Below are positions 5,969 to 21,149 of a stretch of 64,000 nucleotides of DNA, piece after piece (within the stretch, counting starts at the first letter, position 1; each line of letters starts with the position of its first letter). Origin of the DNA: the human T2T-CHM13v2.0 reference genome, Homo sapiens; assembly GCF_009914755.1 (NCBI RefSeq), contig NC_060943.1; one strand, 5' to 3'. The notes under the pieces are model-generated. The model searched no databases. It saw only the letters and a list, made by a program, of their open reading frames with translations, and had not been told where the DNA came from. The position numbers and the translations under genes were made by a program.

Positions 5969-7493
5969 TCTGTAGGCTTCTTTAACCCATCAGAGAGACT
6001 CCCTGGTAAGGATTAGGGGCTAATTACTGGTGCCTCTTCAGCTGTCAGTCCATCCTCCTTTATTTGTACCCACCTTCCAGTCAGCAAGGCACAACAATGT
6101 TGTTACAAAGGAAACAAACTCAATTTGGCCCATTTCCTGGAAATGCAATCTCCCAAACAGGTTTGTGTGAACCAAATTCCATTTTCCTTTGTTTCCCATG
6201 TGCAGTCCCAGTTGCATTTCCATGGGAGCCAATCCACCCACCCATAGAATGACTTGAAAATGTGTGAAGTTCAGAAGTTTCATACCAAGAAGTTTGCTGA
6301 GCATGATGTTTGTATATTGATTAGGAGTAAAAATGTTCATTTTTACAAAATATTACAACTTCTCCCTCTCCCCTCCTTCCACCCAGTATCCCCTGTTCCT
6401 CCCCCAGGCATTCTGGTCACTGTTCCTTTTTGTTGAGATCATTCTCGGTGTCTCATATAGCTGGGTTGCAGCTCCGTTCTTTGCCAGGAGGTGGTAATAG
6501 AGGATTCCACGCACTCAGAATGCCTCAGGCCGGCGCCTGTGGCTTCTCTCAATGGAGGGAAGTGTCCTGCAGGGGGCGCTGTTGGTCCTTCAGGCAAGGT
6601 CGGGTTCCCTCGAAGTCTCTGTCTTAGCAGTTGCTGGTCTTCAGAAACATTGGGCACCAATTTTCTCATTTCTGAAATGGAATTCAGGTGAGGTCCCCTC
6701 AGTGCTGAGGTGCTTCATGTTGTCAGAGGAAGAGTTGGGAAGGGAGCGGAATGGAGCAGAAAGGCGTCATCCGCTGCTCACTGAGCTCAGATAGGAGGCC
6801 AGGGATCGGCAGATTCAGGAGCCCACTCCTGGCCAACCCCAGGGGCCCCACCCAGTCCTGTCCCTGCTCCTTACGTGCTGTGTATCTTTAGGCAAGTTGC
6901 TTCCTGTCTCTGAGCGTCGTCTTTGTTTCCGCCTTCCTGGGCCTACGGCAGGCCTGATTCCTCCAGGCAGTGTCCAGAGTTCCGGACAGATGGAAAAGGA
7001 AGAGAGAATGGGTGTCACAAAGGTCTGTCCACTCCTGGGCCTCAGGCTTGGGGGCCCTGCTCAGGGCTAGCCTGTTTGGGCCTCGGTATGGACTCCTGCC
7101 TCCTGGTCAGGACCTGGAAACCTGGGAGCAGGCAAGGCAGGAACAGGAGAGGGAGGCAAAGGCCCACCAGGCAGGGATGCAGGGGCCACCTGGAGACGGA
7201 GGAGACGGGGCTCCCGGGAGGGAGGCCAGTGGGAGTGAGAGCTTGAAGGAGAGAGAGCCAGGAGAGGAGACAGGTCCAGAGAGGAGGGAAAGGAAAGGAC
7301 AGGGCAGAGACAGAGAAACCAGAGAGAGGGAAGGAAGAGAGACCCAAGGGGGAGAGACAGGGAAGGAAGAGGGAGGTGAGAAGAGGAAGAGGCAGATTCA
7401 GAGGAGAGAGGAGAGAAAAGAGGTGGAAATCAAACAGGAGAAAGAGGGAGGAGAGGAGGGAGGAGAGAGTGTAGGAAAAAAGCAGGAGGAAAG

Positions 7494-7803
7494 AGCCGGG
7501 CACGGTGGCTCACGCCTGTAATCCCAGCACTTTGGGAGGCCAAGGCAGGCAGATCACGAGGTGAGGAGATCGAGACCGTCCTGGCTAACACGGTGAAACC
7601 CTGTCTCTACTAAAAATACAAAAAAAAAATTAGCAGGGCATGGTGGCAGGCGCCTGTAGTCCCAGCTACTCGGGAGGCTGAGGCAGGAGAATGGCGTGAA
7701 CCCTGGAGGCGGAGCTTGCAGTGAGCCGAGATTGCGCCACTGCACTCCAGCCTGGGGGACAGAGCGAGACTCCGTCTCAAAAAAAAAAAAAAAAAAAAAA
7801 AAG
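7494..7803 (+). mobile_element. AluY-like SINE
   Basis: GAGATCGAGACC and GAGAATGGCGTGAACCC young-subfamily diagnostics, long A tail. Confidence 0.92.
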
Positions 7804-18312: not shown

Positions 18313-21085
18313 TCAGAGACAGGAGAGACAGACAGAGATGGAGAGAAATGGGGGGAGAGACAGAGACAGAAATGGGGGTAGAGACAGAGACAGAGAGAAA
18401 TGGTGGGAGAGAGGCAGAGAGAAGTGGGGGACAGTCAGAGATAGAAATGGGGAAGAGACAGAGATAGAAGTGGGGGAGAGACAGAGACAGAGAGAAGTAG
18501 AGGAGAGACAGAGATAGAAGTGGGGGAGAGACAGAGAGAAGTGGGGGAGAGACAGAGACAGAGAAATGGGGGAGAGACAGAGATAGAGGAAGTGGAGGAG
18601 AGACAGAGAGAAGTGGGGGAGAGACAGAGACAGAGAGAAATGGAGAGACAGAGATAGAAGTGGGGGAGACAGAGACAGAGAAGTGGGGGAGAGACAGAGA
18701 GAAGTGGGGGAGAGACAGAGATAGTGGGGGAGACAGAGACAGAGAAGTGGGGGAGAGAGATAGAAATGGGGGAGAGACAGAAGTGGGAGAGAGACAGAGA
18801 TAGAAATGGGGAGAGACAGAGACAGAGAGAAGTGGGGGAGAGACAGAGATAGAAATGGGGGAGAGAGACAGAGAGAAGTGGGGGACAGACAGAGGCAGAG
18901 AAGTGGGGGAGAGTCAGAAATAGAAATGGGGGAGAGACAGATAGAAATGGGGAGAGACAGAGAGAAGTGGGGAGAGACAGAGAGAGAAATGGGGGAGAGA
19001 CAGAGATAGAAGTGGGGGAGAAACAGAGACAGAGAGAAGTGGGGGAGAGAGAGACAGAGAAGTGGGGGAGAGTCAGAGATAGAAGTGGGGGAGAGACAGA
19101 GAAGTGGGGGAGAGGCAGAGAAAGAAGTGGAGGAGAGGCAGAGACAGAAGATGGGGAGAGACAGAGATAGAAGAAGACAGAGAGAAAGAGACACAGAGAT
19201 ACAAAGCCAGGGAGAGACAGAGAGATGGGGAGAAAAGGGAGAGTAAGAAAGAGAAACAGGGGGTGCTGAGGGAGACTGAGAGAAAGTTGGGGGGAGGAGA
19301 CAGAGACACAGAAAAGAGGTGGGAGGAAGAGACAGATGAGACAGATGGAGAGACAGAGAGAAACAGACGAGAAGGAGGAGAGAGAGATGGAGAGAACGAT
19401 AGGGAGAATGAGAGACAGAGACAGTGAGGAGAGGGAGATGAGGCAGGAGAGGAGATAAAGAGAACTGGGGAGAGGGACACAGAGAAAGACAGATGGGGAG
19501 AGAGACAGAGACAGGGAGAAAGAGAAGGAGAGAGAGACGGAGAGAGAGAGGAGAGAGGGAGACAGCGGGAAAGAGGGGGAGAGAGAGAGACGGAGAGAGG
19601 GAGACGGAGAGAGAGAGACAGAGGGAGAGAGAAAGAGGGAGAGAGAGAGTGGGAGAGAGAGACAGAGGGAGAGAGGGAGAGGGAGAGAGAAAGAGGGAGA
19701 GAGAGAGAGAGGGAGAGAGAGACAGAGGGAGAGACGGAGAAAGAGAGGGAGAGAGAGACGGAGAGAGAGAGACAGGGAGAGAGAGACAGAGGGAGACAGG
19801 GAGAGAGAGACACAGGGAGAGAGAGAGAGAGGGAGAGAGAGAGACGGAGAGAGAGAGACGGAGAGAGAGACAGAGGGAGAGAGAGACAGAGAGAGGGAGA
19901 GAGAAGGAGAGAGAGAGAGAGAGGGAGACAGAGACAGAGGGAGAGAGGGAGAAAGAGAGAGAGGGAGAGAGAGAGACGGAGAGAGACAGAGGGAGAGAGG
20001 GAGAGAGAGAGACGGAGAGAGAGAGACGGAGAGAGGGAGAGAGAGAGACGGAGAGAGAGACAGAGGGAGACGGAGAGAGAGACAGGGAGAGAGAGACGGA
20101 GAGAGAGAGACAGAGGGAGACGGAGAGAGAGACAGGGAGAGAGAGAGACGGAGAGAGAGAGACAGAGGGAGAGAGGGAGACAGAGGGAGAGACAGGGAGA
20201 GAGAGAGACAGAGGGAGAGAGAGAGACAGAGGGAGAGAGAGACAGAGGGAGAGAGAGACAGAGAGAGAGAGAGGGAGACAGAGACGGAGAGAGAGACAGA
20301 GGGAGAGAGGGAGAAAGAGAGGGAGAGAGAGACGGAGAGAGAGAGACAGAGGGAGACAGAGAGAGAGACAGAGGGAGAGAGAGAGAGAGGGAGAGAGAGA
20401 CAGAGGGAGAGACGGAGAAAGAGAGGGAGAGAGAGACGGAGAGAGAGAGACAGGGAGAGAGAGACAGGGAGAGAGAGACAGAGGGAGACAGGGAGAGAGA
20501 GACACAGGGAGAGAGAGACAGAGGGAGAGAGAGAGACGGAGAGAGAGAGACGGAGAGAGAGACAGAGGGAGAGAGAGACAGAGAGAGGGAGAGAGAAGGA
20601 GAGAGAGAGAGAGGGAGAGAGAGACGGAGAGAGACAGAGGGAGAGAGGGAGAGAGAGAGACGGAGAGAGAGAGACGGAGAGAGGGAGAGAGAGAGACGGA
20701 GAGAGAGAGACAGAGGGAGACGGAGAGAGAGACAGGGAGAGAGAGAGATGGAGAGAGAGAGACAGAGGGAGAGACAGGGAGAGAGAGAGACAGAGGGAGA
20801 GAGGGTGACAGAGGGAGAGGGAGACAGAGGGAGAGAGAGACAGAGAGAGAGAGAGGGAGACAGAGATGGAGAGAGAGACAGAGGGAGAGAGGGAGAAAGA
20901 GAGAGAGAGATGGAGAGAGAGAGACAGAGGGAGACGGAGAGAGAGACAGAGGGAGAGAGAGAGACGGAGAGAGAGACAGGGAGAGAGAGAGACAGAGGGA
21001 GAGAGGGAGACAGAGGGAGAGAGAGACAGGGAGAGAGGGAGACGGAGAGAGAGAGGGAGAGAGAGACGGAGGGAGACAGCGAGAG
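18313..21085. repeat. ~2.8-kb compound GA-rich VNTR: GAGACAGAGAGAAGTGGGG units followed by GAGA/GACG/GACAGG units
   Basis: Two subdomains (~18313-19200 and ~19540-21085); higher-order block repeated at ~680-bp offset (19717 vs 20397). Confidence 0.95.
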
Positions 21086-21149
21086 AAGACGCGCGGAGCC
21101 TTGCGGCAGGAGGTCGAGGAAAGAACAGCCCCTCTCACCTGGCGTCGGT

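What the first reader, a model, noticed from the sequence alone, without database searches (positions are those of the whole stretch)
7200..21140. 14-kb single-polarity pyrimidine-rich transcript built from distinct repeat modules: an XIST-like scaffold architecture
Seen: from 21.1 kb down to 7.2 kb, nearly all non-Alu sequence is G/A on the plus strand, so C/U in the minus-strand RNA. It is organised as separate modules: a 2.8-kb CU/CUGU VNTR, a motif-plus-spacer array (14.65-17.6 kb), a 1.4-kb (CCU) tract, a 0.45-kb CU tract and diffuse CU (7.2-9.5 kb). Established (recalled): the intron-retaining Charme isoform binds PTBP1 and MATR3 and forms nuclear condensates, and XIST uses separate tandem-repeat domains (CU-rich E repeat for PTBP1/MATR3, C-rich B repeat for hnRNPK, hairpin-spacer A repeat). 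Inference: each module recruits a different protein set, making this a modular condensate scaffold whose internal domain map may be undescribed.
Basis: partly seen in the sequence, partly recalled or inferred. Interest (0 to 1): 0.7.

Follow-up and report, generated by a model that had tools for sequence, protein, structure and literature searches.

The report
Retained pyrimidine-rich intron of HSCHARME lncRNA
The 14-kb strand-skewed stretch is real, but it is the retained first intron of the already published muscle and heart lncRNA HSCHARME (MYREM/lncFAM), a repeat-built platform that soaks up the splicing repressor PTBP1, so it is known rather than new.

Summary
Observation confirmed. The best-scoring purine segment (7116/7124-21125/21128) lies within about 15 nt of an inferred splice donor (21138) and acceptor (7122). 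So the skew is intron 1 of a minus-strand gene.

That gene is HSCHARME (aliases MYREM, lncFAM), the human Charme orthologue. Print already describes three things: intron-1 retention (pCHARME), a "unique UC-rich signature" driven by a 2.9-kb simple repeat at the 5' end of the intron, and PTBP1 CLIP with a decoy model (PMC12374974). The paper also gives a RepeatMasker map and a PTBP1-affinity heat map.

The XIST-like reading is only partly supported. The modules fall into two k-mer classes, CU/CUGU and CCU. All of them resemble only XIST repeat E (r 0.16-0.38); none resembles A, B or D. The motif-plus-spacer array has no consensus hairpin. In PTBP1-motif count the intron is closest to PNCTR.

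Possibly new details:
- The (CCU)n tract is 1.39 kb in CHM13 but 317 nt in the published hg38-based table.
- A 13-unit array of about 130 nt is built on an L2/MIR-tail core.
- Purine "anti-repeat" islands can pair with the 5' repeat.

The parts
21139..21330 (-). HSCHARME core promoter and very short exon 1 (TSS inferred near 21155-21163; exon 1 ends at 21139)
   Evidence: Minus-strand motifs by first base: CAGCTG E-boxes at 21298, 21271 and 21157; a GATA site at 21231; a T-box-like site at 21317; TTAAAT at 21184. The donor AG|GTGAGA puts the first intron base at 21138. The paper places the simple repeat at nt 75 of pCHARME, and the CU repeat starts near 21089 here. MyoD E-boxes and TBX5 sites upstream of the TSS are reported. 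TSS and exon 1 are inferred, not shown.
7122..21138 (-). Intron 1 of HSCHARME, retained in the nuclear isoform pCHARME. This is the whole skewed domain, 14,017 nt (13,947 nt if the acceptor is at 7192).
   Evidence: The maximal-scoring purine segment is 7116/7124-21125/21128 at penalties 1.5-2.0, R = 0.745. Candidate acceptors are ...CCCAG|G at 7122/7121 and ...CTCCAG|G at 7192/7191. Retention is taken from the literature. The intron holds 1,677 overlapping and 546 non-overlapping YUCUYY/YYUCUY motifs.
19500..21090 (-). Module M1a: 14-16-nt CU(G)U minisatellite. The RNA unit is the reverse complement of TRF's AGAGAGAGACAGAGGG. 94% pyrimidine.
   Evidence: TRF periods 14 and 16, about 99-114 copies, 75% matches. 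UCUCU 194/kb; YUCUYY/YYUCUY 434/kb, 691 of the intron's 1,677; no (A/U)UCUU. Together with M1b and M1c it corresponds to the published (TCTCTC)n at nt 75-2955.
19176..19499 (-). Module M1b: degenerate CU-rich junction between the two sub-arrays
   Evidence: Sequence; 86% pyrimidine.
18340..19175 (-). Module M1c: 23-32-nt minisatellite with regularly spaced C4-C5 patches, UCUGUCU cores and A(C/U)UUCU segments
   Evidence: TRF period 23, 36 copies over 18351-19173; sequence. C runs of 4 or more at 36/kb, CUGU 49/kb, UCUCU 103/kb.
17600..18339 (-). Linker M2, not skewed (51% pyrimidine). It holds AAUAAA at 18252-18247, two purine-rich 'anti-repeat' islands at 18024-18104 and 17926-17999, (CCAGG)n at 17806-17841, and a 15-mer x3.2 at 17456-17503.
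   Evidence: The islands form duplexes with M1a, M1c and M7 at -82 to -103 kcal/mol (z -6.4 to -8.2 against shuffled islands) but not with M5 (z 0.1, 0.7). In an MFE fold of 17880-19175, 73 of 81 and 60 of 74 island nucleotides pair with M1c.
14600..17599 (-). Module M3: old tandem array of 13 units of about 125-155 nt. Each unit is a CU-rich spacer plus a roughly 55-nt core antisense to an L2/MIR 3' tail. Alus interrupt it at 16553-17185 and 14895-15205, and (CCU)n at 15289-15392.
   Evidence: the repeat finder families D1, D3 and D6, core 60-82% identical. Alignment of 13 units has mean column identity 41%. 6 of the 13 cores coincide with L2c, L2d or MIRb rows of the published table (mapped by me). 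No consensus hairpin. A 380-nt piece matches nowhere else in CHM13 beyond two hits of about 44 nt.
13536..14599 (-). Linker M4, with a full-length antisense Alu at 13665-13965 and a GGA-type purine island at 14440-14478
   Evidence: The island pairs preferentially with M5, but only weakly (-58 kcal/mol, z -2.5).
12143..13535 (-). Module M5: imperfect (CCU/CUU/CCC)n tract, 1,393 nt, 98% pyrimidine (23 A, 5 G)
   Evidence: TRF periods 3, 10 and 13. Top 7-mers are UCCUCCU and CCUCCUC. CCUCCU 96/kb, UCUCU 4/kb, UGU 1/kb, (A/U)UCUU 9.3/kb, the highest of all modules. There is an internal 94-nt tandem duplication at 96% identity, 12546-12733. The published hg38-based table gives (CTC)n as only 317 nt.
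11556..12142 (-). Linker M6, containing the RefSeq 'enhancer' elements 11577-11636 and 11677-11756
   Evidence: The hub's annotation; 68% pyrimidine.
11100..11555 (-). Module M7: (CU)n / CUGU tract of the same k-mer class as M1
   Evidence: TRF 11103-11552. 5-mer r with M1a is 0.88. UCUCU 134/kb. It corresponds to the published (TC)n plus 'HERVIP10FH-int' rows.
9501..11099 (-). Linker M8 (59% pyrimidine), with the only sense-orientated Alu at about 9604-9895
7122..9500 (-). Module M9: diffuse CU-rich 3' part of intron 1. It includes AluY at 7493-7807, an Alu fragment at about 8670-8820, and the RefSeq MYREM (lncFAM-type) start at 8377.
   Evidence: YUCUYY/YYUCUY 103/kb. 'Shorter isoform ... 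lncFAM' is.
6293..7121 (-). Exon 2 (to 6875), intron 2 (6874-6672) and exon 3 (6671-6293). Not skewed.
   Evidence: RefSeq MYREM exons from the hub's table. Donor GTAAGG at 6874 and acceptor ...TTTCAG at 6672. R = 0.48 for 6293-7191.
6293..10354 (+). Antisense overlap with the long EMC10 3' UTR. On this strand the sequence reads as GA-rich RNA.
   Evidence: The hub's annotation (EMC10 last exon 1634-10354); composition.

Best explanation
The skewed 14 kb is intron 1 of the minus-strand lncRNA gene HSCHARME (human Charme; RefSeq MYREM, alias lncFAM).

**How it works.** In muscle and heart cells the intron is kept in the nuclear isoform pCHARME. Its C/U-rich repeats then act as a very high-valency binding array for the polypyrimidine-tract protein PTBP1. 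In mouse MATR3 also binds, and PCBP2 is predicted in human. The RNA holds these proteins in nuclear foci and speckles and works as a decoy and scaffold that shifts PTBP1-dependent splicing.

**How the modules arose.** They are local tandem amplifications of pyrimidine-rich seeds: two minisatellites, one triplet-type tract, one dinucleotide-type tract, and an old array of about 130-nt units seeded on an L2/MIR tail. Together they form one broadly 'repeat-E-like / PNCTR-like' platform, not a set of functionally unlike domains.

**Shown versus inferred.** Shown here: composition, boundaries, module anatomy, motif counts and k-mer relations. Shown in print: transcription, retention, PTBP1 CLIP at the 5' module, knockout phenotypes. 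Inferred: exact TSS and acceptor, and binding to modules other than the 5' one.
For: **Identity.**
- The paper gives HSCHARME as negative-strand, between EMC10 and JOSD2, with aliases lncFAM and MYREM.
- Its RepeatMasker table matches the window's order and orientations: (TCTCTC)n from nt 75, (CCAGG)n, AluJb/AluSq2/AluJb, L2/MIR pieces, AluSx1, (TC)n, Alu, (CTC)n, (TC)n, sense AluSg4, AluJb, AluY.

**Boundaries.** The maximal purine segment 7116/7124-21125/21128 abuts the donor at 21138 and the acceptor at 7122. The flanking exons and promoter are unskewed, R 0.48 and 0.54.

**Valency.** The intron has 1,677 overlapping and 546 non-overlapping YUCUYY/YYUCUY motifs (120/kb, against 8/kb in 42 kb of control). 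PNCTR, a known PTBP1 sponge, has 2,178 and 565.

**Published function.**
- pCHARME retains intron 1, is nuclear, and has a UC-rich signature from the 5' simple repeat.
- PTBP1 CLIP-qPCR is positive at the 5' part of intron 1.
- PTBP1 binds CACNB1 exon 7 only in the knockout.
- Mouse intron 1 (11 kb) carries about 100 MATR3-type motifs and 11 PTBP1 CLIP sites. Deleting 90% of it releases the RNA from chromatin and gives heart defects.
Against: - No RNA or CLIP data could be examined here, so module-level binding is inferred from motifs only.
- Human (A/U)UCUU density is 3.7/kb (51 in 13.9 kb), against 9.1/kb reported for mouse. MATR3 engagement may therefore not carry over.
- Human-mouse identity is only about 45%.
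- Repeat lengths differ between CHM13 and the published hg38-based model. Much of the sequence may thus be free to drift.
- A GA repeat of the same type also lies outside the transcript, at 21870-21957.
- Predicted anti-repeat duplexes would hide part of M1c.
Confidence: 0.82

Rival explanations
1. One reading: an XIST-like modular scaffold. Each repeat module recruits a different protein set. For example, M1/M7 would take PTBP1 and CELF; M5 would take MATR3, PCBP or hnRNPK; M1c would take PCBP or hnRNPK through its C5 patches; and M3 would take a factor that recognises its core.
For: - The modules form two distinct 5-mer classes: M1a/b/c and M7 correlate at r 0.73-0.88, while M5 correlates with them at only 0.06-0.30.
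- UCUCU is 194, 103 and 134/kb in M1a, M1c and M7, but 4/kb in M5.
- UGU is 38-57/kb in M1 and M7, but 1/kb in M5.
- C runs of 4 or more are 36/kb in M1c and 19/kb in M5, against 1/kb in M1a.
- (A/U)UCUU is absent from M1a and highest in M5, at 9.3/kb.
- PCBP2 is a published predicted interactor.
Against: - No module resembles XIST A, B, Bh or D: all 48 r values lie between -0.12 and 0.12. All 7 CU modules point to the same XIST region, E.
- The M3 core shows no conserved hairpin.
- PTBP1-type motifs are enriched in every CU module, 55-434/kb against 8/kb, so one protein could cover them all.
- No per-module CLIP exists in what I read.
Confidence: 0.2
2. Neutral by-product. The tracts are unstable polypurine/polypyrimidine micro- and minisatellites that expanded at the DNA level. 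Their sequence and length are not selected, and only the presence of some long retained intron matters.
For: - Length differs between CHM13 and the published hg38-based model: about +1.4 kb around M5 and about -89 nt in the 5' repeat.
- A 94-nt duplication at 96% identity lies inside M5.
- About 45% human-mouse identity.
- A GA 19-mer repeat lies 0.7 kb upstream of the TSS.
- An inverted copy of the repeat lies at 17926-18104.
Against: - The skew stops within about 15 nt of both inferred splice sites.
- The skew persists in non-repeat sequence: 67% purine in 7.2 kb.
- Mouse intron 1 is also enriched in CU motifs relative to length-matched introns, and its deletion has a phenotype.
- PTBP1 CLIP signal falls on the repeat.
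Confidence: 0.15
3. DNA-level or sense-strand function. The polypurine/polypyrimidine mirror repeats would act as H-DNA, G-quadruplex or R-loop elements. Alternatively they act as the GA-rich long 3' UTR of EMC10 on the + strand, not through the minus-strand RNA.
For: - EMC10's annotated last exon runs to 10354, so 7.1-10.35 kb is also transcribed as GA-rich RNA (hub annotation).
- Pure purine runs reach 158 nt.
- That such tracts can form triplexes is general knowledge recalled by me, not tested here.
Against: - The skew extends 10.8 kb beyond the EMC10 3' end, exactly to the HSCHARME donor.
- The paper reports no change in neighbouring genes within +/-260 kb after knockout.
- No structural assay is available.
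Confidence: 0.05

Closest known systems
HSCHARME / pCHARME (human Charme; MYREM, lncFAM). Buonaiuto et al., Nat Commun 2025 (PMC12374974: sections 6, 7, 10, 21, passages, and Supplementary Data 4 sheet 7 read). hs-Charme in Ballarino et al., EMBO J 2018 (PMC6138438: passages read).
   Same: Same locus, strand and neighbours. The order of repeats is the same. Intron-1 retention, PTBP1 binding and the decoy model are published.
   Different: Three details are not in the main text or table I read. (1) The (CCU)n tract is 1,393 nt here against 317 nt in the table, and the adjoining Alu is full-length here against 100 nt. (2) The tandem nature of the L2/MIR-core array. (3) The anti-repeat islands. 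The supplementary PDF figures could not be read and may show more.
Mouse pCharme intron 1. Desideri et al., Cell Rep 2020 (PMC7773549: passages read).
   Same: Retained first intron of 11 kb. CU-rich motifs enriched. PTBP1 and MATR3 bind. The intron is needed for chromatin retention and heart function.
   Different: The mouse sequence could not be fetched, so module-level conservation is untested. The human (A/U)UCUU density I measured (3.7/kb) is lower than the 9.1/kb reported for mouse.
PNCTR, a short-tandem-repeat-enriched PTBP1 sponge. Yap et al., Mol Cell 2018 (PMC6224606: passages read).
   Same: An RNA longer than 10 kb built from pyrimidine STRs. PNCTR has 2,178 overlapping and 565 non-overlapping YUCUYY/YYUCUY motifs; this intron has 1,677 and 546. 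Both scaffold a nuclear body and act as a decoy that tunes PTBP1-dependent exons.
   Different: PNCTR is a pol I transcript of the rDNA spacer that sits in the perinucleolar compartment and is overexpressed in cancer. pCHARME is a pol II, muscle-specific, intron-retaining transcript found at speckles. No sequence comparison was made.
XIST repeat domains A, B/Bh, D and E. Sequence taken from the same CHM13 assembly. Protein assignments are recalled, and cited in the reference lists seen.
   Same: Separate tandem-repeat blocks within one long nuclear RNA. The CU modules resemble the repeat-E region in 5-mer content (r 0.16-0.38). UYUYY density averages 98/kb over the intron and 97/kb in E.
   Different: There is no A-like hairpin-spacer, no B-like C-rich block and no D-like block (|r| at most 0.12). 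XIST E is U-rich (U 0.49, C 0.24), whereas HSCHARME modules are C-rich (C 0.47-0.58 in M1a, M1c and M5). The array here is about 19 times larger in UYUYY count (1,370 against 73). The sequence is intronic, not exonic.

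Membership tests
HSCHARME / human Charme locus | Minus-strand gene between EMC10 and JOSD2, aliased MYREM/lncFAM | tested here: met
   The hub's annotation places MYREM at 6293-8377 (-), EMC10 upstream and JOSD2 at 26861-32045. The paper states the synteny and the aliases.
HSCHARME / human Charme locus | Kilobase-scale (UC)n simple repeat beginning about 75 nt from the TSS in intron 1, followed by the published series of Alu, L2 and MIR landmarks | tested here: met
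   The CU repeat runs 21090-18340 after the donor at 21138. Landmarks match the published table with offsets T = 21253 on the 5' side and T' = 19783 on the 3' side.
HSCHARME / human Charme locus | Stable retention of intron 1 in a nuclear isoform expressed in muscle and heart | not testable with these tools
   Literature only. No RNA data are available here.
XIST-like multi-domain repeat scaffold | Several discrete tandem-repeat blocks in one long nuclear RNA | tested here: met
XIST-like multi-domain repeat scaffold | A-repeat-like block: conserved stem-loop cores separated by U-rich spacers | tested here: not met
   RNAalifold gives 0 pairs on the 13 M3 cores. 5-mer r of every module with XIST A lies between -0.03 and 0.05.
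XIST-like multi-domain repeat scaffold | B-repeat-like C-rich block (hnRNPK-type) | tested here: not met
   r with XIST B is at most 0.07 and with Bh at most 0.12. XIST B and Bh have CCC at 257-505/kb, against at most 105/kb here.
XIST-like multi-domain repeat scaffold | E-repeat-like CU-rich block | tested here: met
   All 7 of 7 CU modules have their best XIST windows at chrX 72,261,000-72,261,400 (r 0.20-0.41, 95th percentile 0.04-0.12). The exon control does not. The resemblance is moderate. My background was 491-514 local windows, not a transcriptome as in SEEKR.
XIST-like multi-domain repeat scaffold | Different protein sets bound by different blocks | not testable with these tools
   This needs per-module CLIP. 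Only motif differences are shown.
STR-enriched PTBP1 sponge RNAs (PNCTR type) | Hundreds of YUCUYY/YYUCUY motifs in tandem-repeat sequence of a nuclear RNA longer than 10 kb | tested here: met
   1,677 overlapping and 546 non-overlapping in 14,017 nt, against PNCTR's 2,178 and 565.
STR-enriched PTBP1 sponge RNAs (PNCTR type) | Direct PTBP1 binding and release of PTBP1 activity on knockdown | not testable with these tools
   Published for pCHARME: CLIP-qPCR at the 5' part of the intron, and PTBP1 on CACNB1 exon 7 only in the knockout.

The most novel reading that the evidence does not exclude
T2T-CHM13 shows that human pCHARME carries a second large module, a 1.39-kb (CCU/CUU)n tract. This tract is about four times longer than in the hg38-based model used in print, and it belongs to a different k-mer class from the 5' repeat. 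It has no UCUCU or UGU, the highest MATR3-type UUCUU density of any module, and frequent C-patches.

If its length varies among people, and if it binds a partner set different from that of the 5' repeat (MATR3, PCBP or hnRNPK rather than PTBP1 and CELF), two things follow. pCHARME would be a two-class platform with a length-polymorphic decoy capacity. Repeat length could also modify cardiac splicing programmes and cardiomyopathy risk.
Probability: 0.15. Interest if true: 0.55.

Novelty: already known. Interest (0 to 1): 0.25.

Why it matters
As a discovery it adds little. The gene, its retained CU-rich intron, the PTBP1 interaction and the decoy model are already in print.

The second look still gives people working on this RNA some things to test:
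- An objective statement that the skew is co-extensive with intron 1.
- A module map in T2T coordinates.
- A PTBP1-motif valency equal to PNCTR's.
- Evidence that the XIST analogy reduces to an oversized repeat-E-like platform.
- A warning that hg38-based analyses may miss about 1.1 kb of the (CCU)n module, which matters for probe, guide and CLIP-mapping design.

If the repeat lengths are polymorphic, they become candidate modifiers of a lncRNA already linked to cardiomyopathy.

Tried and rejected
- **Rfam scan** of 6000-22500 at E up to 1. It gave only sub-threshold Alu-derived SRP and miRNA-like hits, and no structured RNA family.
- **Hairpin in the M3 core**, to test an A-repeat analogy: no consensus pairs.
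- **Genome-wide rarity of long polypurine runs**, asked with a 150-letter degenerate pattern.
- **The lncFAM paper, PMC9825165**: not held. I saw only its reference-list entry.
- **Mouse and hg38 sequence**: Cross-species module conservation and the CHM13-versus-hg38 difference therefore rest on published coordinates alone.
- **Copies of the M3 array elsewhere in CHM13**: only two hits of about 44 nt, consistent with generic L2/MIR tails.
- **Transcription-coupled mutation bias as the cause of the skew**: considered and rejected. From recall, that bias favours G+T on the sense strand, whereas here the sense strand is C+T-rich.

Full report
**1. Observation**

The + strand is 74.3% purine over 7001-21100 and 48.4% in the rest of the window. 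In 500-bp windows the fraction ranges from 0.46 to 0.98. The dips fall at Alus and at three linkers. Of 34 polypurine runs of 30 nt or more in the 64-kb window, 31 lie in this interval. The only two comparable polypyrimidine runs on the + strand lie at 48 kb.

The skew is not only a matter of the big repeats. I masked the three large tandem tracts, one small (AGG)n tract and six Alu pieces. The remaining 7,216 nt are still 67.3% purine. 89% of 36 200-bp windows exceed 0.5, against 40% of 241 windows elsewhere (Mann-Whitney p = 3e-13).

A maximal-scoring-segment search (purine +1, pyrimidine -1.5 to -2.0) returns 7116/7124 to 21125/21128, 14.0 kb, R = 0.745.

**2. What it is**

On the minus strand the upstream edge of the skew follows a consensus donor (AG|GTGAGA, first intron base 21138). 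About 25 nt upstream of that is an inferred TSS. Further upstream lie TTAAAT (21184), a GATA site (21231) and CAGCTG E-boxes (21298, 21271).

The downstream edge coincides with a candidate acceptor at 7122/7121; a second candidate is at 7192/7191. Beyond it lie the unskewed RefSeq MYREM exon end (6875), a 203-nt intron and the last exon (6671-6293) (R = 0.48). So the skewed domain is one intron of about 14 kb in a minus-strand gene.

The literature names the gene. Buonaiuto et al. (Nat Commun 2025, PMC12374974; I read sections 6, 7, 10, 21, further passages, and sheet 7 of Supplementary Data 4) lifted mouse Charme over to hg38 chr19:50,486,482-50,500,386. They call the locus HSCHARME, with aliases lncFAM and MYREM. 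It is transcribed from the negative strand between EMC10 and JOSD2. They report the following:
- The major isoform, pCHARME, stably retains intron 1 and is nuclear.
- PTBP1 and PCBP2 are the predicted binders.
- PTBP1 CLIP-qPCR is positive on the 5' part of intron 1.
- The RNA acts as a PTBP1 decoy.

Their RepeatMasker table lists the same elements in the same order and orientation as I find in the window.

hs-pCharme with a retained intron 1 was already reported in 2018 (PMC6138438, passages). For mouse, an 11-kb intron 1 with about 100 MATR3-type CU motifs and 11 PTBP1 CLIP sites was reported, together with a deletion phenotype (PMC7773549, passages). The RefSeq MYREM model starting at 8377 corresponds to what the 2025 paper calls a shorter isoform, lncFAM.

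**3. Anatomy in T2T coordinates**

The RNA reads from 21.1 kb down to 7.1 kb. I set the module boundaries by eye.

| Module | Window coordinates | What it is |
|---|---|---|
| M1a | 21090-19500 | 14-16-nt minisatellite, 94% pyrimidine, UCUCU 194/kb |
| M1b | 19499-19176 | Degenerate CU-rich junction |
| M1c | 19175-18340 | 23-32-nt minisatellite with C4-5 patches (36/kb) and UCUGUCU cores |
| M2 | 18339-17600 | Unskewed linker; AAUAAA at 18252-18247; two purine islands, inverted copies of the repeat unit |
| M3 | 17599-14600 | 13 units of about 125-155 nt: CU-rich spacer plus a roughly 55-nt core |
| M5 | 13535-12143 | 1,393-nt imperfect (CCU/CUU/CCC)n, 98% pyrimidine; internal 94-nt duplication at 96% identity |
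| M7 | 11555-11100 | (CU)n/CUGU tract |
| M9 | 9500-7122 | Diffuse CU |

On M3: in six of the 13 units, the core coincides with rows that the published table calls L2c, L2d or MIRb, antisense to the transcript. The array is split by two Alu insertions.

Five of six Alu pieces are antisense to the RNA.

**4. Are the modules different in kind?**

Raw 5-mer profiles give two classes. M1a, M1b, M1c and M7 correlate with each other at r 0.73-0.88. M5 correlates with them at only 0.06-0.30. M3 and M9 are intermediate.

Motif densities differ accordingly:
- UCUCU and UGU/CUGU are concentrated in M1 and M7 and nearly absent from M5.
- (A/U)UCUU, the MATR3-type motif used in the mouse paper, is absent from M1a and highest in M5 (9.3/kb). 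It totals 51 in the intron, 3.7/kb, against 9.1/kb reported for mouse.
- PTBP1-type YUCUYY/YYUCUY motifs are enriched in every CU module, 55-434/kb against 8/kb in 42 kb of control. They total 1,677 overlapping and 546 non-overlapping; 888 of the 1,677 lie in M1a-c.
- PNCTR, the classic repeat-built PTBP1 sponge, has 2,178 and 565 (PMC6224606, passages).

**5. Test of the XIST analogy**

I located XIST in the same assembly through the Rfam Xist_exon4 model and fetched 36 kb. I identified these landmarks:
- Repeat A: 44-48-nt units, chrX 72,285,313-72,285,702.
- The C-rich B and Bh blocks.
- The pyrimidine-rich block at the start of the last large exon, about 72,260,750-72,261,500. Its position fits repeat E; that label is recalled.

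I then compared z-scored 5-mer profiles. The background was 491-514 local 500-nt windows. This is not a transcriptome, so the values are not comparable with published SEEKR scores.
- All 7 of 7 CU modules have their best XIST windows inside the E block (r 0.20-0.41; 95th percentile of all XIST windows 0.04-0.12).
- The exon 2-3 control does not (maximum 0.12, elsewhere).
- Against defined segments, r with E is 0.16-0.38 for the seven CU modules and -0.08 to 0.11 for the linkers and exons.
- All 48 values against A, Bh, B and D lie between -0.12 and 0.12.
- The M3 core gives no consensus structure.

XIST E is U-rich (U 0.49, C 0.24), while the HSCHARME modules are C-rich. The intron holds 1,370 UYUYY motifs against 73 in E. 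The architecture is therefore 'many E-like blocks of two flavours', not an A/B/E-type division of labour.

**6. Mechanism and rivals**

*Best supported (0.82).* A retained intron acts as a multivalent PTBP1 platform and decoy, with MATR3 and PCBP2 as possible further partners. The platform was built by local tandem amplification.

*A neutral repeat by-product (0.15).*
- For: length differences between assemblies, recent internal duplication, low cross-species identity, and a GA 19-mer repeat outside the transcript at 21870-21957.
- Against: the skew ends at the splice sites, it extends into non-repeat sequence, and the mouse genetics show a phenotype.

*A DNA-level or EMC10-3'UTR role (0.05).* The skew runs 10.8 kb past the EMC10 end.

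**7. Details that may be new**

(a) *The (CCU)n tract is much longer than in the published map.* I mapped the published table onto the window.
- The 5' landmarks fit an offset of 21253: (CCAGG)n, the AluJb/Sq2 cluster and AluSx1.
- The 3' landmarks fit an offset of 19783: (TC)n, AluSg4, AluJb and AluY.
- CHM13 therefore carries about 1.47 kb more between AluSx1 and the (TC)n tract.

In that interval the table has 100 nt of AluSc8, a 5-nt gap and a 317-nt (CTC)n. CHM13 has a 300-nt Alu, 129 nt of unique sequence and 1,393 nt of (CCU)n. The 5' repeat is about 89 nt shorter in CHM13.

I could not see hg38. This may be a polymorphism, a deletion in the reference or in the transcript model, or less likely a CHM13 assembly problem. 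The paper's main text contains no occurrence of 'VNTR', 'polymorphi', 'tandem', 'Alu' or 'T2T'. Its supplementary PDF figures could not be read.

(b) *Anti-repeat islands.* The purine islands at 18024-18104 and 17926-17999 can pair with M1a, M1c and M7 at -82 to -103 kcal/mol (z -6.4 to -8.2 against shuffled islands), but not with M5. In an MFE fold of 17880-19175 they pair with M1c at 73 of 81 and 60 of 74 positions, while 74% of M1c stays unpaired. This qualifies the published view that the UC stretches are unstructured, but it does not overturn it.

(c) *The tandem nature of M3.*

**8. Verdict**

The identification as Charme is correct. The XIST-like modular interpretation is only partly supported. 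The finding as a whole is already known. Interest 0.25.

Noticed in passing
window 12143-13965: CHM13 has a full-length antisense Alu (13665-13965), 129 nt of unique sequence and a 1,393-nt (CCU)n tract. The published hg38-based pCHARME RepeatMasker table has 100 nt of Alu, a 5-nt gap and a 317-nt (CTC)n in the same place. That is about 1.4 kb more in CHM13. The cause could be a polymorphism, a reference deletion or an assembly issue.
   Followed up: partly
window 17926-18104 and 14440-14478: Short purine-rich (in the RNA) islands of the opposite polarity lie beside the big pyrimidine modules. The first two are inverted copies of the 5' repeat unit and are predicted to form duplexes of about -100 kcal/mol with M1a, M1c and M7. 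The third is GGA-type and is only weakly specific for the (CCU)n tract.
   Followed up: yes
window 14643-17596: The 'motif-plus-spacer' array is 13 tandem units of about 125-155 nt. The core of each unit is antisense to an L2/MIR 3' tail. It is an old tandem amplification of a transposon fragment plus CU spacer, later split by Alu insertions. It is unique in the CHM13 genome apart from generic 44-nt tail matches.
   Followed up: yes
window 18247-18252 (minus strand): A canonical AAUAAA sits about 90 nt after the end of the 5' minisatellite. If used, it would give a short transcript of about 2.9 kb consisting almost only of the PTBP1-motif array.
   Followed up: no
window 6293-10354: The annotated long EMC10 3' UTR (+ strand) overlaps the 3' 4 kb of HSCHARME (- strand). 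The two RNAs are perfectly complementary there, and the EMC10 UTR is GA-rich over 7.1-9.5 kb.
   Followed up: no
window 21870-21957: A GA-rich 19-mer repeat (4.6 copies) of the same flavour as the intronic minisatellite lies about 0.7 kb upstream of the TSS, outside the transcript.
   Followed up: no
window 7493-17185: Five of six Alu pieces in the intron are antisense to the RNA; only the one at about 9604-9895 is sense. From recall, antisense Alu fragments are reported to carry nuclear-retention elements bound by hnRNPK. This was not tested here.
   Followed up: no
window 27556-29501: A roughly 2-kb block inside JOSD2 is C-rich on the + strand (C 0.43-0.48, pyrimidine 0.655). It is the strongest segment of the opposite polarity in the window.
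   Followed up: no
window 17456-17503: A GC-rich 15-mer is repeated 3.2 times at 87% matches, at the 5' edge of the M3 array.
   Followed up: no
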